Shown here: positions 166 to 45,930 of the stretch, one piece after another | Position numbering within the stretch: position 1 is the stretch's first letter | Layout of the letters: every line of letters starts with the position of its first letter | Assembly: GCA_028694925.1 (NCBI GenBank) | Contig: JAQVJW010000003.1 | Location: 1 to 50,918, forward strand | DNA length: 50,918 bases | Direction: 5' to 3' | Source of the DNA: Patescibacteria group bacterium | GTDB taxonomy: Bacteria > Patescibacteriota > CPR2 > UBA1875 | Notes under the pieces: generated by a model | What the model was told of the DNA's origin: nothing | Databases searched by the model: none | What the model saw: the letters and a program-made list of their open reading frames with translations, nothing else | Made by a program: the position numbers and the translations under genes

Positions 166-276
166 CGTGCTTGTGCCTTTGGTAATATCCGTAGCAACTA
201 CCCCGCCTGAAAGGAGGGGATACACTAGAAATCGCAGCTCATTCGCAGTAGTAATTCTACCAGGAAGGCAAGAACC

Positions 277-468
277 ATGAAAGCTATCATCGGGATCATT
301 CTTTTGGCATCCGCGGGGGCCTTGGTCGTTTTTGGCCACATCACCCTGGCGTCAGGAGAACTGAATTCTCTTGTGAGGCTCTGGGTGTATGCGGGTATGA
401 CCGCCTTTCCGGGCGGGCTACTCTATACAGCTCATCGTCTCTGGAGAAGTTCAGACCAAGCCGTCTAG
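277..468 (+). CDS. Orphan 63-aa membrane microprotein, two predicted TM helices
   Basis: SD AGGAAGG 262-268, ATG 277, two hydrophobic stretches; promoter upstream, terminator downstream. Confidence 0.65.
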   Translation: MKAIIGIILLASAGALVVFGHITLASGELNSLVRLWVYAGMTAFPGGLLYTAHRLWRSSDQAV

Positions 469-588
469 GTCTGGTCTCGAAAATCGAATAGCTCTAATAC
501 GTGAACAACTCCCCTTGGGAGTTACAAGTTGGTAGGCGACCCGCCCTCTCCTCCCCCCCTCAGGGGCGGATCCCGCCGCCAGCACTCG

Positions 589-627
589 AAGGGACGGCCG
601 AACCCCCACGGCCGTCCCTTTCTCTTT
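589..627 (+). terminator. Intrinsic terminator
   Basis: aagggacggccg-aaccccca-cggccgtccctt, 12-bp stem plus tctcttt. Confidence 0.8.
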
Positions 628-645
628 GTTATAATAAGCTTTGCC

Positions 646-674
646 TTGTTGTTTGAGCTAATTTAGGCTATAAT
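646..674 (+). promoter_or_regulatory. sigma70 promoter
   Basis: TTGTTG, 17 nt, TATAAT (669-674). Confidence 0.65.
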
Positions 675-716
675 ACTCGCACATTAGGGGATGGACCTTG
701 AAGGAGGCGAAACCAC

Positions 717-926
717 ATGTACGAATGGAAGGAAGAGCATGGAGGTGGCGTGGTTTCACATCGCCTCTATGTCGATCGTAAACGAACCCAGGTCTATATC
801 ATGCGCAAGCATGGAATAGAGGGTCCTTGGGTCATCCGAGATGGTACCAGGTACGTTCTCGAAAGGCGGGCCTTGCCTCATGCAAAGGCGGCTTACCTGA
901 AGCTACTCAAGATGATGGGGAGGTGA
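717..926 (+). CDS. Orphan 69-aa basic protein
   Basis: SD AAGGAGG 701-707 then ATG 717. Confidence 0.7.
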   Translation: MYEWKEEHGGGVVSHRLYVDRKRTQVYIMRKHGIEGPWVIRDGTRYVLERRALPHAKAAYLKLLKMMGR

Positions 927-932
927 TAAGAG

Positions 933-1298
933 ATGAAGCTGCTTCTTGTGCTTCTAGCTCTGATCATCACGATCTATTTCTTCAGGCAAGGTACTTCGCT
1001 TTTTTTGGAGAGACGAAGGATCTCCGGTGTCATCTTCGCCAAGGGAAGTATCGTGCTGCTCGGGACGTTCACCGTCTACGTCTTGTACGGCAGACCCGGG
1101 ATACAGATTCAAGTGGCGATAGCATACTGGGAAGCCGCTGGATTCTCCAGCTGGGCCTCATACATGGCCGCCAAGGCATACCTGGACAGTCGAAGCCGAG
1201 TTGCATTGGGGGGGTGGCTTCTAATGTTGCTGCTTTCGGGGTTCCTCGTCGGCTATGGAGTGCTAATCCTGCAAGGGATTATCCCGGTTACCGGCTAG
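933..1298 (+). CDS. Orphan 121-aa membrane protein (about 4 TM)
   Basis: SD GGAGGTGA overlapping upstream stop; several hydrophobic segments. Confidence 0.7.
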   Translation: MKLLLVLLALIITIYFFRQGTSLFLERRRISGVIFAKGSIVLLGTFTVYVLYGRPGIQIQVAIAYWEAAGFSSWASYMAAKAYLDSRSRVALGGWLLMLLLSGFLVGYGVLILQGIIPVTG

Positions 1299-1318
1299 TG
1301 AATGGGGAGGTGAACAGC

Positions 1319-1507
1319 ATGGATGTCGATAAGGATAAGGTCTACAAGAACTGGACCCCGGAGGAGATCCGTCAGTTTGTCAAGACGGATCCCGGAATCC
1401 GGGAATATATCGACGAGCGAGTTCGACAGGAACTCGCAGAGAGGTTCAATCTTCCCCGAGAACTGAGTGGGCTCGACAGAATCGGGACAGATTCAACCCA
1501 CGAGTGA
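1319..1507 (+). CDS. Orphan 62-aa charged protein (MDVDKDKVYKNW...)
   Basis: SD GGGGAGG then ATG 1319; this is the 3' part of track ORF 827..1507. Confidence 0.65.
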   Translation: MDVDKDKVYKNWTPEEIRQFVKTDPGIREYIDERVRQELAERFNLPRELSGLDRIGTDSTHE

Positions 1508-1540
1508 ATAACGCACCAATGGTAAAAGTATTACCCTGAT

Positions 1541-1565
1541 GGGCCGGCAGTAACCGGCCCTTTTG
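1541..1565 (+). terminator. Intrinsic terminator
   Basis: gggccgg-cagtaa-ccggccc-tttt. Confidence 0.8.
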
Positions 1566-25313: not shown

Positions 25314-27413
25314 ATGGCTCGAGATTATAGCTTAGAAAAAACAAGAAATATCGGAATTATCGCTCACATTGATGCCGGAAAGACGACGGTCACCGAGGGT
25401 ATCCTTTATCTTACCGGGAAGACCCATAAGATCGGAGAGGTTCATGAAGGTGAGGCGACGATGGACTGGATGGAGCAAGAGCGAGAACGAGGGATTACGA
25501 TTACCTCGGCTGCGACGACTTGTTTTTGGCAAGATAACCGCATTAATATTATCGATACTCCGGGTCACGTCGACTTTACGGTTGAAGTGGAACGGTCTCT
25601 TAGAGTGCTTGATGGGGCGGTAACTGTTTTTGATGGCAAGATGGGGGTAGAGCCTCAATCCGAGACTGTTTGGCACCAAGCCGATAAATATCACGTCCCC
25701 AGGATGTGCTTTATAAACAAGATCAACCAGACCGGTGGTGATTTCTATAAATCCCTAGATTCAATTCGAGAACGGCTTTCGAAGAATGCTTATCCGATTC
25801 AGATTCCAGTTGGTGTTGAGCAAGGGATCAACGGAGTCGTTGACCTTGTTAAGATGAAAGCATATACCTACACCGAATATCATGACAAGAAATTAGTCGA
25901 GGAAGAGGTTCCGGCCGATCTTCGTGAGAAGGCCGAGAAATATCGAGAAGAACTGCTTGAGAAGGCTGTTGAAGCCGATGAAAAACTAATGGAGAAATAC
26001 CTTTCGGGCGAAGAACTTACGGAAGAAGAGTTTAAAACCGCTATCAGAAAGAGTGTTCTTGCAGGTGATTTCTATCCGGTTTTAGGTGGTGATGGTCGGG
26101 GTGTAATCGTTGAGACTGTGCTAGACGCGGTGATCGATTATCTCCCAAATCCAACCGAAGTCCCAGCCGTAAACGGGATTGATCCCAAAAGTGGCGAAGA
26201 GGTAGAACGGAAGTCTAGCGATAGCGAGCCTTTTGCTGCGCTGGCCTTTAAGATTGCGACTGACCCGTTTGTCGGAAAGTTGGCTTTCTTCCGCGTCTAT
26301 TCTGGTACGATTAAGGCTGGGTCTTATGTTTTAAATGCAACAACCGGAACGAAGGAAAGACTTGGTCGGATCGTAATGCTCCATGCAAACCACCGTGAAG
26401 ATGTTGACGAAGTTTACGCTGGGCAAATTGCTGCTGCAGTTGGGCTTAAGGGGACGACAACCGGTGATACCCTTTGTGATCCTGATAAACCGGCGATCCT
26501 TGAATCAATCACTTTCCCAGACCCTGTTATAACAATCGCAATTGAACCAAAAACTAAAGCTGACCAAGAAAAGATGGGAATTGCTCTTCAAAAGCTAGCC
26601 GAAGAGGACCCAACTTTTGTGGTGAAATCAGACGAAGAGACCGGCCAAACCGTTATCTCTGGAATGGGCGAGCTTCATCTTGAGATTATTGTCGATAGAA
26701 TGAAACGAGAATTCAAGGTAGAAGCGAATGTTGGTAAGCCCCAAGTTGCCTACAAAGAAACCATTAAAGAAAAAGTTCAAGTTGAAGGTAAGTATATCAA
26801 ACAGTCCGGAGGTCGGGGTCAGTATGGCCATGTTTGGCTTGAGCTTGAGCCACTAGAGCCAGGTTCTGGCTTTGAATTTGTTGATAAGATTGTCGGTGGA
26901 ACAGTTCCTAAAGAATACATTAACCCTACTCAGCAAGGTATCGTTGAGGCAATGGCGAATGGTGTTGTGGCCGGCTATCCTGTTGTCGATATGCGAGCCA
27001 CCCTTTACGATGGTTCATATCATGATGTTGACTCATCAGAGATGGCCTTTAAGATCGCAGGTTCAATGGCCCTACAAAGTGGGGTAAGAAAAGCCAAGCC
27101 AGTGATCCTTGAGCCGGTGATGAAGGTAGAAGTTGTAACTCCAGAAGAGTTCATGGGTGATGTGATGGGTGATATTAACGCTAAACGTGGTCGAATCCAA
27201 AATATGGACGACCGAGGCAATGCCAAAGTTATTGATGGCTTTGTACCCCTTTCGGAGATGTTTGGCTATGCCACCCAACTTCGCTCAATGACTCAGGGCA
27301 GGGCCGCTTATGTGATGGAATTCGACCATTATGAGGAAGTACCAGGGAATATCGCTGAGGATATTAAGGCCTCAAGAGGCAGTAAGACTGAGTCAGAGCC
27401 GGAAGAAGCTTAG
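25314..27413 (+). CDS. fusA: Elongation factor G with altered G4/G5 motifs
   Basis: [42 protein letters not shown]; str-operon position. Confidence 0.98.
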
Positions 27414-27441: not shown

Positions 27442-27475
27442 GAGATAAGGGCAATGCATAAGCGTTGCCTTTATC
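27442..27475 (+). terminator. 15-bp hairpin after fusA, probable terminator
   Basis: agataagggcaatgc-ataa-gcgttgcctttatct (with G-U pairs). Confidence 0.5.
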
Positions 27476-27504
27476 TTGTGGATAAATAAATTACGCGATA
27501 TAAT
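27476..27504 (+). promoter_or_regulatory. Promoter of micro-ORF operon; -35 overlaps a DnaA box (27477-27485)
   Basis: TTGTGG, 17 nt, TATAAT (27499-27504). Confidence 0.6.
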
Positions 27505-27579
27505 ACGCCTACTAACGGTAATGGGTGTTTGGGGTAAGCCGCGCACCTTAACTTGCAAGTTCGGAAAGGGCTGGTGCAC

Positions 27580-27774
27580 ATGAGGAAAGCGTATCAGCTC
27601 CTTCTCTACGCGTCGTATCAGAGCGCCATATTCCTGGCCGTACTCTTCATAAGCCCAAAAGCTGCAAGACGGTTTTTGGGGATTTGGATCGCAACATTCG
27701 TTGGGTATCTTGCTTGTGACATGGGGCCCAAAGACCAGGAAGAGGGTGACCGAGATGCCAGAATGGGCAGTTGA
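27580..27774 (+). CDS. Orphan 64-aa membrane microprotein
   Basis: ATG 27580, two hydrophobic segments then acidic tail; overlaps next ORF. Confidence 0.5.
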   Translation: MRKAYQLLLYASYQSAIFLAVLFISPKAARRFLGIWIATFVGYLACDMGPKDQEEGDRDARMGS

Positions 27775-27928
27775 ATTCCTAACAAGCGAGTACGGGATCC
27801 CAGTTACCCTTGTGGTAACTGCTTTCGTGCTCGTTGGGGTATCGAGGGTGGCCATCCTGTTCATCAGGCCATTCTTCGGGCCTGCACCGAGGACGGGGAA
27901 CATGCCAGAGAACAAATCGAGAAAGTAA
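27755..27928 (+). CDS. Orphan 57-aa single-TM microprotein (MPEWAVEF...)
   Basis: SD GAGGGT then ATG 27755; TM IPVTLVVTAFVLVGVSRVAILFI. Confidence 0.6.
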   Translation: MPEWAVEFLTSEYGIPVTLVVTAFVLVGVSRVAILFIRPFFGPAPRTGNMPENKSRK

Positions 27929-27942
27929 CGGAGGGCGAACCC

Positions 27943-27984
27943 ATGAAGTATGTCAGCGTCGAACGAGAGGGGGTGTCGGCATGA
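27943..27984 (+). CDS. 13-aa peptide MKYVSVEREGVSA
   Basis: SD GGAGG then ATG; stop overlaps the next start (ATGA). Confidence 0.45.
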   Translation: MKYVSVEREGVSA

Positions 27985-28151
27985 CGGCATCTATCGTATC
28001 TTCACTAATCGCAGTAACAGGAGGCGACGGGCTCGGTATTGTGTTCATCTTCTTCGGGTTGCTCCTCACCACATCGTCAGTGGTGCTTGGGGTCTGGGCG
28101 CTTGTGGAACGTTGGTATGACAGGCCCCTAATAGACCCTGGCCCGCAGTAG
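27981..28151 (+). CDS. Orphan 56-aa single-TM microprotein
   Basis: ATGA coupling, SD GAGGGGGTG, TM LGIVFIFFGLLLTTSSVVLGVWALV. Confidence 0.6.
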   Translation: MTASIVSSLIAVTGGDGLGIVFIFFGLLLTTSSVVLGVWALVERWYDRPLIDPGPQ

Positions 28152-28164
28152 AAGGGGGTTTGAA

Positions 28165-28566
28165 GTGACAACGGAGGCGAGGCGCTACCTTGCTGTTCCA
28201 GTACGCATTCTCACGGTGCTGCTTGCTCTTGTGGCGAGTATCGTGGGTTTGCTGAACGGTCTTGGGCGGCTCCTCATAATCTTGGGGTGCTTCTTCTTCG
28301 AAGTCTGGCCGTACTGGATTAGGCAGTCGCTCGAGTATCGTCGAGCGCAACGTCAGGTGAGGCTTGAAGCGAAGCTTGCGACGCTATGTGAGAGCTGTAC
28401 CACGAGGGTAGACAACGACTACATCGGTAGTACACTGACGATCGAGTGCACTTGTCGCAAGTTACAAGCTCTCAAGGCCAGAATTGATCGGATCGATCAC
28501 AACCTGACACTATCTCCGGCATTGCCGGACGAAATGGCTCAGGCTGCGAGCCCAGGCGGGTTCTGA
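28165..28566 (+). CDS. Orphan 133-aa protein: N-terminal TM hairpin plus CxxC...CxC putative metal site
   Basis: GTG after AGGGG; CESC and CTC motifs. Confidence 0.6.
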   Translation: MTTEARRYLAVPVRILTVLLALVASIVGLLNGLGRLLIILGCFFFEVWPYWIRQSLEYRRAQRQVRLEAKLATLCESCTTRVDNDYIGSTLTIECTCRKLQALKARIDRIDHNLTLSPALPDEMAQAASPGGF

Positions 28567-28580
28567 GGGAGGAAGGAGCC

Positions 28581-28757
28581 ATGTATCAATCAGCTCATTC
28601 GACGAAGCCATCCCAGGCAGCCCACTTCGTTGCGTGCATCATCTGCATCGCAGAGGCGCTCAGGGAAGTGGTAGCCCGAGGCATCGACTGGGCGATTCCG
28701 AAGGAGGAAATGCCCGAGGAGCCGGAGGCGTTCGAGCCGAACCCACTCGCTTTGTAG
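28581..28757 (+). CDS. Orphan 58-aa protein (MYQSAHS...CIIC...acidic tail), not in ORF track
   Basis: very strong SD GGAGGAAGGAG then ATG 28581, TAG 28755-28757. Confidence 0.6.
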   Translation: MYQSAHSTKPSQAAHFVACIICIAEALREVVARGIDWAIPKEEMPEEPEAFEPNPLAL

Positions 28758-28817
28758 AGGTCCTCTGAACTTGCTTACCGAAAGGAGGCACACGGGAACA
28801 TGGAGGTTCTCAAGTGT

Positions 28818-28863
28818 CCTTGACGGGCCCGGATCGCAGTTGCGTGACGGGCCCGAAGGCTTT
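28818..28863 (+). terminator. GC hairpin built from two direct copies of TGACGGGCCCG (self-complementary core)
   Basis: copies at 28821-28831 and 28845-28855, flanked by cctt/aagg, followed by cttt. Confidence 0.45.
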
Positions 28864-28875
28864 ATGACAAAAGTC

Positions 28876-28904
28876 TTGCAAACTAGGGAAAAGTTAGGTA
28901 GAAT
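28876..28904 (+). promoter_or_regulatory. tuf promoter; DnaA box downstream at 28943-28951
   Basis: TTGCAA, 17 nt, TAGAAT. Confidence 0.75.
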
Positions 28905-29014
28905 ACGTGATGTAACTCAATAACATGAGTAAACCCACAATTTGTGGATAAGTTTTATTGTCTAAATGCGGAATTATACTAATAAGTCAAAAAAACCGAA
29001 AGGGAGGTAACTAA

Positions 29015-30193
29015 ATGACACAATTTGATCGTTCAAAGCCGCACGTAAATGTTGGTACTATTGGTCACGTTGACCATGGTAAGACAACTCTTACGGCCGC
29101 CATTACAAAAGTCCTATCAAAAGATGGTAAAGCCGAATTTACTGCTTTTGAAAACATCGACAAAGCTCCAGAAGAGAGAGAGCGTGGTATTACTATTGCT
29201 ACCGCTCATGTTGAATACGAGTCTGACAAGCGTCACTATGCACACGTAGACTGTCCAGGGCACGCTGACTATGTTAAAAACATGATTACTGGTGCTGCTC
29301 AGATGGATGGGGCAATTCTCGTTGTAGCTGCTACTGATGGTCCAATGCCTCAAACAAGAGAGCACTTACTGCTTGCAAAGCAGGTAAACGTACCAGCTGT
29401 TGTTGTCTTTATGAACAAAGTTGATATGGTCCAAGATGAAGAGATGCTTGACCTTGTAGAGATGGAGATCAGAGAGCTTCTTACAAAGTACGAATTTGAT
29501 GGTGATAATGCAAAGATTATCCGTGGTTCTGCTCTTAAGGCTCTTGAAGGTGATGCTAAATATGAAGAAGGTATTAAAGAGCTCATAACCGCTCTTGATG
29601 AAGCTATTCCAGAGCCAAAGCGTGATATCGACAAGCCTTTCAAGATGCCCGTCGAAGACGTTTTCTCGATTAAGGGCCGGGGTACAGTTGCTACTGGTAG
29701 AATCGAGCAAGGTGTTGTTAAGGTTAACGAAGAGATTGAGATCGTTGGTATTAAAGACACCAGAAAGACTGTTGTGACTGGAGTCGAAATGTTCAAGAAG
29801 ACTCTTGATCAGGGTCAAGCTGGTGATAATGCTGGTATCCTTCTTCGTGGTATTGAGAAAGATGACATTGAACGTGGTATGGTTCTTGCTAAGCCTGGTT
29901 CAATTACACCTCATACTGAGTTTGAAGCTAAGATCTATGTTCTAACTAAAGAAGAAGGTGGACGACATACTCCATTCTTTAAGGGTTACAAGCCCCAGTT
30001 CTACATCGGTACTACTGATGTAACTGGTGAGGTTATCCTCCCCGAAGGTACCGAGATGGTAATGCCGGGTGATAGCGTAGAAGTAACCGTTAAGCTGATG
30101 CAGCCAATTGCGATGGACGAAGGTACTAGATTCGCGATTCGTGAAGGTGGTAAAACAGTCGGAGCCGGTGCCGTATCAAAGATCAATAAGTAA
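29015..30193 (+). CDS. tuf: Elongation factor Tu
   Basis: [27 protein letters not shown]; SD GGGAGGT. Confidence 0.99.
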
Positions 30194-30551: not shown

Positions 30552-30589
30552 AAGAAACTTCGACAATGATTCGGAGTAAGATAGCAAAG

Positions 30590-30624
30590 AACCGCTTCAA
30601 ATGAGGCGGTTTTTTGTGTATAAT
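30590..30624 (+). terminator. Terminator after rpsJ overlapping a promoter for the next insert
   Basis: aaccgc...gcggtt-ttttt; TTCAAA (30596-30601), 17 nt, TATAAT (30619-30624). Confidence 0.7.
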
Positions 30625-30666
30625 GCGTTCAACGTGAAAACGGTAGGAAGCTAGGGAGGTGACTCG

Positions 30667-30966
30667 ATGGGTCGCTCAATGGTAGAAGCCTGCATTTGTT
30701 TTCCTGGAACAACTCTGTATCAGCGTGATCCAGGACTCCGTGGCCTCTACACAAAGATACTTGAGCTTGTCTCTAGCCAGTTCGAAATCGACCCCAAGAA
30801 GGTAGAGTTTCGGAAGTGGGGAAGAGGGATCAAGGTTCGTTTCTGGGTAAAGGGTGACTGCATCGAGGTTGCCTTTTCTGCTAGGGTGATCAACCCAGAA
30901 ACCGGCGTCATTCGCTTTCGAGGAATGAAGTATGTCCTCGATGAAGAAGGGAGCGGGACGTTATGA
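30667..30966 (+). CDS. Orphan 99-aa soluble protein
   Basis: SD GGGAGGTGA then ATG. Confidence 0.7.
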   Translation: MGRSMVEACICFPGTTLYQRDPGLRGLYTKILELVSSQFEIDPKKVEFRKWGRGIKVRFWVKGDCIEVAFSARVINPETGVIRFRGMKYVLDEEGSGTL

Positions 30967-31088
30967 CTATCTGGGCGGCTATATCGCTTCTCCTCCTTGC
31001 GATTTTCGTTTTGGGGAAAACCAAGGTCCGGAGAGACACCTGGTACGATCGAGAAGAGAGGCGCAGGTTGAACGAGTATTTCCTGTGA
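30963..31088 (+). CDS. Orphan 41-aa single-TM microprotein MTIWAAISLLLLAIFVLGKTKVRRDTWYDREERRRLNEYFL, not in ORF track
   Basis: ATGA overlap with upstream stop; TM followed by basic positive-inside tail. Confidence 0.6.
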   Translation: MTIWAAISLLLLAIFVLGKTKVRRDTWYDREERRRLNEYFL

Positions 31089-31131
31089 CACTATTCTCTC
31101 TCGACATCCGATCAAGGGGTCAGTACTCATA

Positions 31132-31178
31132 GGGCGACACTAATCTGTAAGGATGAAGTGTCGCCCGTTCGCTTTCTA
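31132..31178 (+). terminator. Terminator-like hairpin
   Basis: gggcgacact (31132-31141) / agtgtcgccc (31157-31166), then gttcgctttct. Confidence 0.55.
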
Positions 31179-31295
31179 GACAAAAAGAGGCCCAAGACAT
31201 CTCTTGGGACACTCTTATTGGGTAACAATCCTACCGAACTATAAATAATATAGTCTATTTGTTACTATAATTCATTGTTAAAATGACAAAATTGT

Positions 31296-31324
31296 TTGAC
31301 TTAGTAATTGTAAAGTGTGATAAT
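31296..31324 (+). promoter_or_regulatory. Promoter for surface-protein trio
   Basis: TTGACT, 17 nt, GATAAT. Confidence 0.55.
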
Positions 31325-31355
31325 AGGGTCGCAAATATATAAGGGGGAGTGAACT

Positions 31356-32222
31356 ATGAATGTATTAAACAAAAAGCAGACGATTATTGCTTTTGTCATC
31401 CTCGGTCTTTTTACTATTCTTGTTGGTGTTGTTATGTGGTATTTTATCGATTCCAGCTTTAATACCGAAACTACAGAATCAACGGTAGGGGAAACTATTA
31501 CAGAGGATGTGCAATCTGATGAAGTCGAAATACCATCAGATTTTTCTAAGATTACTCTTAATGAGGTTGAAATCTTTTATCCAGAAGACTGGGGGACCCC
31601 TAAAACAGCGGAAACAAAAGAAAATTTATCGGATGACCTGGGCCCGGGCCGAACCTTTGAAGGCGAATACGCCGATTGGGATTTCCTTAATGGAACCGGA
31701 ACATATGTTCAAGTAAACGAGATGGCGAGCTTAAAAAACAAGCTCTCAGAAACACAAAAGGTAATTACAGCTCTCGAGAATACCTACGAAAACAAGAAAC
31801 TCGACGAAGAAGATTTGGCAGGTACTAACTTCGGATACATTCCAAGTCCTAATGCGGGGGTCGTTGCATACACAGCACGTTATGTTGAGAATTATAATAG
31901 TACCTGGCGAGGTTACTGGTATTTGGGGACGATTGGTCAGGACATTAATGCCAGCGTTCATTTTGTGAGTGTGATGTATAACAAAGACCTGGGTAAGGTG
32001 ATGACAGTTGATCAACTCATACCATCAACAATGTCGCGAGCCCTAACAGACAGAATAGCCTCGGTATATAGTGGTACGGGTACCGAGATAGAGCAGAACA
32101 AGTTACAAAATGATCTAACAACTTATATAGAAGGGGTTTACAAGGTTGATGCGGAGATAAAAGAAACTGTGGACAGCGAATTGCTAAATGTATGTAATTT
32201 GGTAGGCTATAAGGAGAACTAA
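31356..32222 (+). CDS. N-terminally anchored acidic extracytoplasmic protein
   Basis: basic N-terminus, TM ending WYF, acidic linker, IFYPEDW motif. Confidence 0.8.
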   Translation: MNVLNKKQTIIAFVILGLFTILVGVVMWYFIDSSFNTETTESTVGETITEDVQSDEVEIPSDFSKITLNEVEIFYPEDWGTPKTAETKENLSDDLGPGRTFEGEYADWDFLNGTGTYVQVNEMASLKNKLSETQKVITALENTYENKKLDEEDLAGTNFGYIPSPNAGVVAYTARYVENYNSTWRGYWYLGTIGQDINASVHFVSVMYNKDLGKVMTVDQLIPSTMSRALTDRIASVYSGTGTEIEQNKLQNDLTTYIEGVYKVDAEIKETVDSELLNVCNLVGYKEN

Positions 32223-44680: not shown

Positions 44681-44804
44681 GACTATCTTATAGTACCTTA
44701 AAATCCTTCTTAGGGACTGGTAATTTGGAATTAAAAAGTTAATTCTAGTTTGCCGTTCCCTACGAAGGGCGGAAACCGAAGACCCCTACGAGGGTCGAAA
44801 GGAA

Positions 44805-45572
44805 GTGGTTGTGTTGATCAAGAATAATATCTACCTTCAGATGGGGGATGTTCCTCCGGAGCTACGCACTGCACTGACCGACAAGATACGTGTGCTCGAA
44901 AGTGAGAATCGCTGGGAGAGCACTTTCGAGGGCCCGACCAACTCAATTACTCCAGTTCTCAACATGGCTCTCGACGACGGAGCTCAAGTCACGAGCTTCA
45001 TCGAGTGCCTCATCAAGAAGCGTCACAACCCCCCACTAGTAGACGGGGAAATCCGCGAACAACTCTTTGAGCTCGTGGGACTACACCCGTATCTCTACAA
45101 CATCCCCAGGCTTCGTCAGTGGTCCGAGCTGTTGGGCTGGGAGAAGGTCCTTGACGCTGAGTTCGTCACGGCGTATCGGGCCTGCAAGCTGATCACTACC
45201 GAGGGACACGGTGATGGTTTCGAGTACCATTTCACCGTCGACGTGGAGGGATACAAGTTGGGTCTAGATGTTATCACTAATAGGGCTAGGCTCAACACCG
45301 CGGATATGCGTGAAGGCGGAAGAGATACGAGAAAGTCTTGGGGTTACCCCCTGGCTCAAGCTCGAATCTTGAATGACCCACAAAGTCTCACTCAGCTGAA
45401 GGAGGATATGGCCGAGTACCGCTATTGGACACGTCTTGCCAAGCGCCTGATCATCAAGGCTGGTCACGCCGACTACGCTGGGCTACCCTTCGGCCAGACG
45501 ATGGCCTCAATCGAGGTGGCCGATCATCCCTTCTTCCAGGACCGCGACGAATGGGAGATGGTCTGGGTCTAG
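44805..45572 (+). CDS. Orphan 255-aa soluble protein in GC-rich insert
   Basis: long open frame, SD AAGGA upstream of GTG/GTG/TTG candidates, terminator downstream; no family recognised. Confidence 0.75.
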   Translation: MVVLIKNNIYLQMGDVPPELRTALTDKIRVLESENRWESTFEGPTNSITPVLNMALDDGAQVTSFIECLIKKRHNPPLVDGEIREQLFELVGLHPYLYNIPRLRQWSELLGWEKVLDAEFVTAYRACKLITTEGHGDGFEYHFTVDVEGYKLGLDVITNRARLNTADMREGGRDTRKSWGYPLAQARILNDPQSLTQLKEDMAEYRYWTRLAKRLIIKAGHADYAGLPFGQTMASIEVADHPFFQDRDEWEMVWV

Positions 45573-45591
45573 CCACCCAGGTTTCCGCAGG

Positions 45592-45621
45592 GCCCCGGCG
45601 CGCAATGCGCCGGGGCTTTCT
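45592..45621 (+). terminator. Intrinsic terminator
   Basis: gccccggcgc-gcaat-gcgccggggc-tttct. Confidence 0.75.
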
Positions 45622-45634
45622 GTTAAAAAAAGTC

Positions 45635-45663
45635 TTGCACAAATCATAAAACTATCGTACAAT
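45635..45663 (+). promoter_or_regulatory. Promoter of infA-rpmJ-alpha operon
   Basis: TTGCAC, 17 nt, TACAAT; preceded by an A-tract. Confidence 0.75.
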
Positions 45664-45678
45664 CATTAGGCACTTAAT

Positions 45679-45930
45679 ATGACAGATAACACAAAGGAAG
45701 TAATCGAGATTGAAGGGACCGTTCAGGAATCTCTCCCAAACGCAATGTTTAGGGTAGAGCTCGAGAACGGCCACGTTATTTTAGCGCATATTTCCGGGAG
45801 AATGCGAAAGCATTACATCAAAATATTACCCGGAGATAAGGTTAAGCTTGAAATGACCCCTTATGATCTTACTAAAGGAAGAATCATCTACCGAGTAGAT
45901 GATAGGAAAAAAGACCCAAATGAAAGTTAG
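45679..45930 (+). CDS. infA: Translation initiation factor IF-1
   Basis: [26 protein letters not shown]-like [10 protein letters not shown]. Confidence 0.98.

What the first reader, a model, noticed from the sequence alone, without database searches (positions are those of the whole stretch)
27511..28823. Translationally coupled array of six or seven microproteins between fusA and tuf
One promoter leads through a leader hairpin (GCACC/GGTGC enclosing the RBS) to ORFs of 64, 57, 13, 56, 133 and 58 aa, plus a possible 7-aa MEVLKCP (28800-28823). Most have strong SDs or overlapping stop/start. Four are TM proteins, and two carry CxxC motifs (CESC+CTC; CIIC). Most true starts, and two ORFs entirely, are missed by the ORF track. 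A dense membrane-peptide operon could form a small membrane complex (host contact, pore, phage exclusion) or be a nursery of new genes.
Basis: partly seen in the sequence, partly recalled or inferred. Interest (0 to 1): 0.6.

Follow-up and report, generated by a model that had tools for sequence, protein, structure and literature searches.

The report
Orphan small-membrane-protein operon between fusA and tuf
Between the genes for elongation factors G and Tu, this ultra-small bacterium carries a separate, G+C-rich mini-operon for five tiny proteins with no known relatives (four of them membrane proteins); the genes look real, but this gap holds variable extra genes in related genomes too, so it is a new example of a known pattern.

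Summary
Window 27,580-28,757 (+) carries five tightly packed ORFs of 64, 57, 56, 133 and 58 aa, plus a plausible 13-aa ORF. All have strong Shine-Dalgarno pairing. Four have transmembrane segments. Codon-position G+C switches frame exactly at the ORF borders. Shuffled sequence never reproduces this (0 of 500).

Two details fail. The leader hairpin is no better than chance. The start of the 7-aa MEVLKCP ORF is buried in a 3' hairpin.

The unit has its own predicted promoter and terminal hairpins, and lies between a strong fusA terminator hairpin and the tuf promoter. Its third-position G+C is 0.63, against 0.42 for the genome.

No protein has a detectable homologue, and no RNA family matches.

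All three other family members with data have the same layout at this site (terminator, promoter, small membrane and Cys-rich ORFs, terminator, tuf promoter). So do about half the order, each with different, G+C-rich cargo.

Best reading: a moron-like accessory small-membrane-protein operon in a variable fusA-tuf slot. Its function is unknown; envelope modulation or phage exclusion is a guess.

This scan has reported similar cassettes at this slot in other Patescibacteria genomes. Verdict: new member of a known kind, moderate interest.

The parts
27442..27477 (+). fusA terminator-like hairpin (16-bp stem, U-rich 3' arm)
   Evidence: -23.6 kcal/mol, z -6.7. Relatives have clear intrinsic terminators at the aligned position.
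27476..27504 (+). Predicted cassette promoter: TTGTGG (-35), 17-nt spacer, TATAAT (-10)
   Evidence: Read. TATAAT is invariant in the alignment with G002, G003 and G004. Not flagged by the scan tool because the -35 matches only 3 of 6 bases.
27511..27579 (+). About 70-nt leader; the proposed RBS-enclosing hairpin is not significant
   Evidence: z +0.6; 143 of 200 shuffles fold at least as well.
27580..27774 (+). o64: 64-aa protein with one or two hydrophobic segments and an acidic C-terminus
   Evidence: SD -7.8; GC123 0.54/0.45/0.55; maximum KD19 1.83. Not in the protein collection.
27755..27928 (+). o57: 57-aa single-pass membrane protein (acidic N-terminus, basic C-terminus); overlaps o64 by 20 nt
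   Evidence: SD -8.4; KD19 2.55. Singleton cluster. No homologue.
27943..27984 (+). o13: 13-aa mini-ORF whose stop overlaps the o56 start (ATGA); possibly a coupling ORF
   Evidence: SD GGAGG, -10.0; sequence.
27981..28151 (+). o56: 56-aa membrane protein with one long or two TM segments, ending in a Pro-rich tail
   Evidence: SD -14.2; KD19 2.40. Singleton. No related locus.
28165..28566 (+). o133: 133-aa protein. N-terminal TM helical hairpin, a basic helix, then a beta-hairpin flanked by Cys75/78 and Cys95/97 (candidate Cys4 metal site), then a helix
   Evidence: SD -11.3. AF2 pLDDT 71.6 for the whole protein, and 72-89 for the hairpin when folded alone. No homologue.
28581..28757 (+). o58: 58-aa protein with a short hydrophobic/amphipathic helix holding CIIC and an acidic tail; not clearly TM
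   Evidence: SD -10.7; GC3 0.73; KD19 1.68. No homologue.
28800..28823 (+). o7 (MEVLKCP): doubtful ORF
   Evidence: The SD is strong (-10.9), but the SD and ATG are paired inside hairpin 28785-28821. G003 has a similar SD plus a 6-codon ORF ending Pro-stop just before its terminator, so only two examples exist.
28785..28855 (+). Two 3' hairpins. The second (28824-28855) pairs two copies of CGGGCCCG. Likely terminator or 3' stabiliser, with a weak U-tract
   Evidence: -41.3 kcal/mol for 28785-28875, z -4.2. Relatives have GC-rich terminators here.
28876..28904 (+). tuf promoter: TTGCAA, 17 nt, TAGAAT
   Evidence: Flagged. Conserved in G002, G003 and G004.
28935..28965 (+). Conserved tuf leader element: hairpin (CCAC..GTGG) followed by a U-rich tract
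   Evidence: Conserved in family f1 and, with a varied stem sequence, in family f3.

Best explanation
The 1.36-kb G+C-rich island (about 27,510-28,870) is a self-contained accessory transcription unit placed in the fusA-tuf spacer.

Proposed path of expression:
- Transcription starts at its own sigma-70-type promoter, just behind the fusA terminator hairpin.
- One mRNA carries five SD-led, tightly coupled small genes, and probably a 13-codon coupling ORF.
- The mRNA ends in GC-rich hairpins, just before the separate tuf promoter.

Products: four small integral membrane proteins (o64, o57, o56, o133) and one small acidic protein (o58). o133 has a TM hairpin that would hold a Cys4 beta-hairpin domain on the cytoplasmic face; this is probably a metal-binding clasp.

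The unit works like a phage 'moron' placed in a chromosome: its own promoter, its own terminator, foreign composition, small membrane cargo. It sits in a slot that holds different cargo in related genomes.

Shown: the coding and expression signals, the foreign composition, the orphan status, and the conserved slot and layout in relatives.

Inferred: that the cargo entered or was replaced by horizontal exchange; that the proteins act together in the membrane; and that their job is an accessory envelope function such as modulating a membrane machine or excluding phage. I give any specific function no more than about 0.2-0.3.
For: - Coding: SD energies, codon-position G+C and frame switching, shuffle test, no SD on the antisense strand.
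- Transcription-unit borders: hairpins, tuf promoter, borders aligned with relatives.
- Foreign composition: island GC 0.53-0.66 against about 0.44 in the flanks; GC3 0.63 against 0.415 +/- 0.059.
- Slot and layout: the fusA-tuf gap is 835-1600 bp in 4 of 4 family members with data, and 800 bp or more in 5 of 10 f3 genomes and 1 of 1 f4. It is 100-185 bp in 5 of 5 f5 genomes and 280 bp in the one f2 genome.
- Cargo in relatives: their gaps hold SD-led small TM and Cys-rich ORFs, with GC3 above their own fusA and tuf by 0.15-0.40.
- Moron criteria and the example of a small inner-membrane exclusion protein (HK97 gp15): PMC3594210.
- The ORFs also occur on an independent 1356-bp Logan contig.
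Against: - There is no expression or protein evidence.
- No homologue exists, so purifying selection cannot be measured.
- The promoter -35 is weak and the tool did not flag the promoter.
- The 3' hairpin has only a weak U-tract.
- No mobility gene, repeat or att-like site marks an insertion.
- The AT-rich promoter and terminator frame aligns with relatives, which would also fit in-place divergence rather than import.
- No phage, plasmid or viral-contig match supports a mobile donor.
Confidence: 0.7

Rival explanations
1. Vertical descent with very fast divergence. The cassette is the ancestral one of the family, and o133 is the diverged orthologue of the TM plus CxxC...CxxC protein kept at this site in G002, G003 and G004. 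The G+C excess is then maintained rather than imported.
For: The layout and gene order are similar in the closest relative G003: TM, TM, Cys protein, then a further small ORF. The borders align. The Cys proteins of G002, G003 and G004 are homologous (z 7.4-9.5), yet each keeps GC3 of 0.49-0.56 in hosts whose GC3 is 0.15-0.36. That argues for a maintained rather than transient G+C excess.
Against: There is no significant similarity between any own protein and any cassette protein of a relative. The best z is 4.05 among 70 pairs, and hhalign gives probability 0.3%. The own cassette has the highest GC3 in family f1, though not in the order (the f3 cassettes reach 0.69-0.72).
Confidence: 0.3
2. 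De novo gene nursery. The ORFs are young and arose in place from non-coding spacer. They are translated but have little or no function.
For: All five are orphans. They are short and rich in TM segments, as is often described for young genes (my background knowledge).
Against: GC3 of 0.63 and a regular GC3>GC1>GC2 pattern do not match the local AT-rich spacer. All starts have strong SDs, and the packing is operon-like. Relatives keep coding cassettes in the same slot.
Confidence: 0.1
3. A toxic small-peptide module: type I toxin-like or holin-like peptides.
For: Several hydrophobic peptides under 65 aa with charged tails.
Against: No antisense promoter was found. The leader does not hide the first SD better than chance. 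There is no endolysin or any other lysis or phage gene, and no PHROG or PADLOC hit. Five genes in series is not the type I layout.
Confidence: 0.07
4. Not protein-coding: a structured RNA, or chance ORFs in G+C-rich DNA.
For: Long ORFs also occur on the antisense strand (186 and 94 aa). The + strand folds slightly better than shuffles (z -2.45, 20 shuffles).
Against: Shuffle test; SDs only on the sense strand; frame-switching GC3; four in-frame TM segments; no Rfam match even at E<=1.
Confidence: 0.04
5. Assembly chimera: foreign DNA joined into the contig.
For: The composition jumps sharply. An independent Logan contig of 1356 bp carries four of the island ORFs. Its length is close to the island's, so it may span little beyond the island.
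Against: The island lies in the middle of a 50.9-kb contig. The island's borders align with native regulatory elements of three relatives that have cassettes at the same place. The short Logan contig fits strain variation at a hot spot equally well.
Confidence: 0.03

Closest known systems
Phage 'morons' (for example HK97 gene 15; Cumby, Davidson and Maxwell 2012, PMC3594210)
   Same: An independent promoter-to-terminator unit, with G+C content unlike its neighbours, inserted between conserved genes of a fixed gene order. The cargo can be a small inner-membrane protein (gp15, superinfection exclusion).
   Different: This unit sits in a bacterial chromosome between fusA and tuf, not in a phage or prophage. 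It carries five genes, not one. There is no sequence relation to any phage protein.
Core-gene-flanked hot spots and flexible islets of horizontally acquired genes. HGT in Patescibacteria is surveyed in PMC12455944 (abstract only read).
   Same: The same two core genes bracket different accessory cargo in related genomes, and the composition is foreign.
   Different: The unit is very small (1.4 kb). It has no integrase, transposase or tRNA. The cargo is only microproteins. The G+C excess recurs in every relative, whatever the host's G+C content.
Bacterial small membrane proteins that modulate larger membrane machines (AcrZ, KdpF, MgtS, CydX; my background knowledge)
   Same: Size (about 50-65 aa), one or two TM helices, and routinely missed by annotation.
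   Different: Those are usually single genes beside their partner or under a specific regulon. Here five orphans form their own operon, with no partner gene nearby.
TM plus CxxC-x6-7-CxxC-x5-H proteins encoded at the same slot in G002, G003 and G004 (alignment A3; uncharacterised)
   Same: An N-terminal hydrophobic segment followed by four Cys, second to last in the cassette, as for o133.
   Different: o133 has CxxC-x16-CxC spacing and an extra helix. Homology is not detectable.

Membership tests
Phage moron | Own promoter and own terminator (autonomous transcription unit) | tested here: met
   Predicted promoter 27476-27504, 3' hairpins 28785-28855, upstream fusA terminator hairpin. This is a sequence prediction only.
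Phage moron | [quoted passage not shown] | tested here: met
   island 0.53-0.66 against about 0.44; GC3 0.63 against 0.415.
Phage moron | Located within a phage or prophage genome | tested here: not met
   The flanks are fusA and tuf within the rpoBC-str-S10 array. The island's ORFs have no PHROG hit. The rest of the window was not scanned for phage genes.
Core-flanked HGT hot spot / flexible islet | Different gene content between the same two core genes in related genomes | tested here: met
Core-flanked HGT hot spot / flexible islet | Identifiable donor or mobility genes | tested here: not met
   No integrase or transposase domain and no repeats at the borders. No match in phage, plasmid or viral collections.
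Type I toxin-antitoxin | Overlapping or adjacent antisense RNA gene, and a leader that occludes the toxin SD | tested here: inconclusive
   No minus-strand promoter by consensus scan. Leader fold z +0.6. The consensus scan is weak evidence.
Integron gene cassette | attC-type imperfect inverted repeat at the cassette end, a promoterless cassette, and an integrase nearby | tested here: not met
   The unit has its own promoter. No repeated attC-like element or integrase was found in the window.
Holin / lysis cassette | Adjacent endolysin (and spanin) genes | tested here: not met
   No Pfam or PHROG hit for any ORF in the island.
SecE or other known small Sec/translocon subunits | Match to the family profile | tested here: not met
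   No Pfam or NCBIfam hit. The genome's SecE is at C22:876-1037.
Zinc-ribbon / ZAS-type Cys-rich domains | Profile or fold match; HxxxCxxC for ZAS | tested here: inconclusive
   No Pfam hit. Foldseek and VIA-align gave only generic long-helix matches. AF2 places the two Cys pairs at the two ends of a beta-hairpin. Metal binding was not tested.

The most novel reading that the evidence does not exclude
The fusA-tuf slot of this order may hold one selectively maintained, extremely fast-evolving module: small TM peptides plus a membrane-anchored Cys4 protein. On this reading the versions in different genera are orthologous although their sequence similarity is gone. The persistent GC3 excess (0.15-0.40 above the host's fusA and tuf in each of the seven genomes where the flanking genes were measured) would be kept by selection or by a dedicated gene pool. 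That would make these cassettes a new class of arms-race genes, acting at the host interface or in phage exclusion, and parked beside the translation-factor genes of ultra-small bacteria.
Probability: 0.2. Interest if true: 0.65.

Novelty: new member of a known kind. Interest (0 to 1): 0.4.

Why it matters
- Annotation gap: five real-looking genes, four for membrane proteins, lie inside one of the most conserved gene arrays in bacteria. The public annotation called only two of them.
- What the comparison adds: in this order the fusA-tuf spacer is a regular parking place for self-contained cassettes of tiny membrane and Cys-rich proteins. Their third-codon-position G+C stays far above the host's, even where the host GC3 is only 0.15.
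- If the proteins are made, they are candidates for the fast-changing envelope or anti-phage repertoire of ultra-small symbiotic bacteria, about which little is known.
- The maintained G+C excess is an unexplained compositional rule that population data could test.

Tried and rejected
- Rfam at gathering score and at E<=1: nothing in the island.
- Pfam, NCBIfam, PADLOC and PHROGs on all five proteins: nothing above noise. o57 against DUF7722 scored 17 bits against a cut-off of 26.
- phmmer of o133 against 1.84 billion representatives: only two tandem-repeat artefacts.
- Word-index searches for o58, o57 and the relatives' Cys-protein profile: only self matches.
- Locus scans of metagenome, genome and viral collections for o133, o58 and o56: none.
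- blastn of the island against phages and plasmids: none.
- DNA and six-frame protein searches in 60 relatives and in the whole class (32 genomes): none.
- No paralogue or second copy in the own genome.
- ESM Atlas: best score 0.76, not informative.
- Fold searches: only generic coiled-coil matches.
- Structured-RNA reading: z -2.45 (+) and -1.4 (-) on 996 nt; rejected.
- Antisense 186-aa and 94-aa ORFs: shadow frames without SD; rejected.
- DnaA-box reading of TGTGGATAA at 27477 and 28943: in f3 relatives the tuf-leader element is a hairpin plus U-tract with a different stem sequence, so the hairpin reading is preferred.
Full report
CONTEXT
The window is the whole 50.9-kb contig C4 of a 665-kb, 92%-complete genome with 42.7% G+C. 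Its relatives have genomes of 0.5-1.2 Mb. Earlier scan notes call it Patescibacteria; I could not name the taxon myself. The local gene order is rpoB, rpoC, rpsL, rpsG, fusA (25314-27413), the island, tuf (29015-30193), rpsJ. G+C rises from about 0.44 to 0.53-0.66 between about 27,510 and 28,870, then falls to 0.30-0.39 before tuf.

The ORFs are at the stated coordinates.

SD pairing. All seven proposed starts follow a purine-rich SD. Duplex energies with a canonical anti-SD are -7.8 to -14.2 kcal/mol. All ATG/GTG/TTG triplets in the island average -3.5. None of 20,000 random draws of seven matched the observed mean. The 16S 3' end is not in the assembly, so the anti-SD sequence is assumed.

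Packing. The ORFs are packed as in an operon: a 20-nt overlap, an ATGA overlap, and gaps of 13-14 nt that each hold the next SD.

Codon-position G+C. It follows the coding pattern GC3>GC1>GC2 in o57, o56, o133 and o58, and marginally in o64. A 120-nt frame plot switches the high-GC and low-GC positions exactly at the ORF borders.

Antisense ORFs. G+C-rich DNA also gives long antisense ORFs (186 and 94 aa). These are shadow frames and have no SD (+0.6 to -4.0 kcal/mol).

Shuffle test. In 500 dinucleotide-preserving shuffles the best strand had on average 0.85 SD-led ORFs of 50 aa or more (maximum 3) and 0.006 with a hydrophobic 19-mer (maximum 1). The real + strand has 6 and 4; the real - strand has 0.

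Verdict on the ORFs. Five ORFs are robust and the 13-codon ORF is plausible.

Two details fail:
- The leader hairpin is not better than shuffles (z +0.6).
- The 7-codon ORF has its SD and ATG paired inside a stable hairpin (28785-28821).

THE TRANSCRIPTION UNIT
fusA is followed by a 16-bp-stem hairpin (27442-27477, z -6.7). Next comes TTGTGG, 17 nt, TATAAT (27476-27504). I read this by eye; the scan tool needs 4 of 6 bases in the -35 and did not list it.

The 3' end has two strong hairpins (28785-28855; z -4.2 for 28785-28875). It is followed by a tool-flagged tuf promoter (TTGCAA, 17 nt, TAGAAT; 28876-28904) and a hairpin plus U-tract in the tuf leader.

THE PROTEINS
- o64, o57, o56 and o133 have clear hydrophobic segments.
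- o58 has only a short amphipathic stretch holding CIIC, plus an acidic tail.
- AF2 on single sequences models o133 as a long N-terminal helix (the two hydrophobic segments), then a beta-hairpin with Cys75/78 at one end and Cys95/97 at the other, then a helix. The pLDDT is 71.6 for the whole protein, and 72-89 for the hairpin when residues 70-133 are folded alone.
- By the positive-inside rule (my inference), both ends of the TM hairpin and the Cys4 domain face the cytoplasm, so a metal clasp is plausible.

WHAT THE SEARCHES FOUND
Nothing related was found in any of these:
- Pfam, NCBIfam, PADLOC, PHROGs;
- 1.84 billion representative proteins, where the only hits were repeat artefacts;
- the 5.8-billion-protein index for o57 and o58;
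- metagenome, genome and viral contig scans;
- phage and plasmid DNA;
- the own genome;
- all 31 other genomes of the class, by six-frame search;
- the ESM Atlas;
- PDB fold searches;
- Rfam.

In the exact look-up, four ORFs are singleton clusters. They were seen on this contig (NCBI called only the 57- and 58-aa genes) and on an independent Logan contig of 1356 bp.

COMPARATIVE EVIDENCE
The order holds 28 sampled genomes. Approximate fusA-tuf spacer lengths:

Family | Genomes and spacer length (bp)
f1 (own family) | G000 1600, G002 1400, G003 1040, G004 835
f3, long | G010 2530, G020 1930, G016 1280, G022 1230, G018 910
f3, short | five other genomes, 190-250
f4 | G007 990
f5 | all five with data, 100-185
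f2 | 280

Layout in the family. Read base by base, G002, G003 and G004 have the same layout as the window: fusA stop, intrinsic terminator, a promoter with a perfect TATAAT, a leader, two to five SD-led same-strand small ORFs, a terminator, TTGCAW-17-TAGAAT, and the conserved tuf leader. The border regions align, with TATAAT and the tuf promoter and leader invariant; the interiors do not align.

Cargo in relatives. Their cargo is again small TM peptides plus a Cys-rich protein.
- The Cys proteins of G002, G003 and G004 are mutually homologous (CxxC-x6-7-CxxC-x5-H; z 7.4-9.5).
- A TM peptide is shared between G004 (f1) and G018 (f3) (z 9.7).
- None of the window's five proteins is significantly similar to any of them. 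The best z is 4.05 among 70 pairs, and hhalign gives 0.3%.

COMPOSITION
The cassette's GC3 is 0.63. The genome's long ORFs average 0.415 +/- 0.059, and only 3% exceed 0.55. The same excess holds in every relative where the flanks were measured:

Genome | Cassette GC3 | fusA/tuf GC3
G002 | 0.51 | 0.31-0.36
G003 | 0.48 | 0.30
G004 | 0.56 | 0.15-0.18
G016 | 0.72 | 0.44
G010 | 0.69 | 0.40
G020 | 0.69 | 0.45

The homologous Cys-protein genes stay at 0.49-0.56 in three hosts. This fits a shared G+C-rich gene pool or a maintained bias better than a single recent import.

The own genome has about 97 windows of 52% G+C or more. Several hold strings of small SD-led ORFs, and the four island ORFs I scanned on this contig have no Pfam family.

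INTERPRETATION
The island is a real, autonomous, compositionally foreign operon for orphan microproteins, sitting in a slot that is variable across the order. It works like a phage moron: its own promoter and terminator, atypical G+C, and small membrane cargo such as HK97 gp15 (PMC3594210). It is not in a phage, so it is not a member of that class. It also fits the idea of core-gene-flanked hot spots, but it has no mobility genes.

Whether the cargo was replaced by exchange or diverged in place from the family's ancestral cassette is open; I put replacement at about 0.6 and in-place divergence at about 0.3. Function is unknown. My preferred guess is that the proteins act together as an accessory envelope module, in membrane-complex modulation or phage exclusion. 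That is inference only.

EARLIER SCAN NOTES
Other agents reported G+C-rich self-contained cassettes in the fusA-tuf spacer and other ribosomal-operon gaps of other Patescibacteria genomes. I took the moron comparison from those notes and checked it in the paper. I established the hot-spot and GC3 claims independently here, for this order. This finding is therefore another instance of a pattern the scan has already seen. It is unusual in carrying five coupled microprotein genes.

LIMITS
- There are no expression data.
- All structure models are single-sequence.
- The promoter and terminators are predictions.
- The relatives are one genome per species, and many are incomplete.
- Two literature searches found no paper on this specific pattern. 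That does not show that none exists.

Noticed in passing
Relatives' fusA-tuf spacers: L032, L033, L034, L035, L036, L037: Cassette ORFs in the fusA-tuf slot have GC3 0.15-0.40 above the flanking fusA and tuf in each of the seven genomes where flanks were measured (host GC3 0.15-0.47). The excess persists in homologous genes across three genera.
   Followed up: partly
L033:3882-4202 (+), L034:4280-4597 (-), L032:2828-3061 (-): An uncharacterised small protein family with the motif CxxC-x6-7-CxxC-x5-H, mostly with an N-terminal hydrophobic segment, is conserved at the fusA-tuf slot in three genera of the family (alignment A3). In G002 and G003 it is followed by an overlapping gene for a GGGxY-TM peptide with a basic tail. 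It has no Pfam or PHROG hit, and only the G002 member is in the protein index.
   Followed up: partly
window 28935-28965; L004, L006, L015, L018, L022, L008: The tuf 5' leader carries a conserved hairpin (CCAC..GTGG) followed by a U-rich tract, like an attenuator. It is present in family f1 and, with a varied stem, in f3. In this genome its 3' arm spells TGTGGATAA, the DnaA-box consensus, and the same 10-mer forms the -35 region of the cassette promoter (27476) and lies in the rpoB promoter (16922). No Rfam match.
   Followed up: partly
window 30552-32221: The rpsJ-rplC spacer is also interrupted. It holds a 99-aa ORF (30667-30966, locally G+C-rich) and a 288-aa ORF with an N-terminal TM segment (31356-32222). 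Neither has a Pfam family.
   Followed up: partly
window 201-1550 and 44751-45750; genome contigs C29:101-2000, C3:1201-2450: The genome has about 97 windows of 52% G+C or more. Several hold strings of small SD-led ORFs; for example, six in series on C29 and three at window 717-1507. The four ORFs scanned on this contig have no Pfam family. The fusA-tuf island is one of a genome-wide class.
   Followed up: partly
window 27701-28757 (Logan contig): An independent public assembly holds four of the island ORFs on a contig of only 1356 bp, about the length of the island. This could mean the island is a separate branch of the assembly graph (strain variation at the slot). The contig could not be fetched.
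   Followed up: no
L035, L036, L037 (G010, G020, G016 spacers): Genus g11 of family f3 keeps a different conserved cargo in the same slot: an approximately 86-aa soluble protein (56% identity between G016 and G010) preceded by a 43-aa TM peptide.
   Followed up: no
window 28800-28823; L004 about 1295-1316: Both this genome and its closest relative G003 have a strong SD and a 6-7-codon ORF ending Pro-stop immediately before the cassette's terminator hairpin. With only two examples this may be chance, or a remnant of a translation-sensitive terminator.
   Followed up: partly
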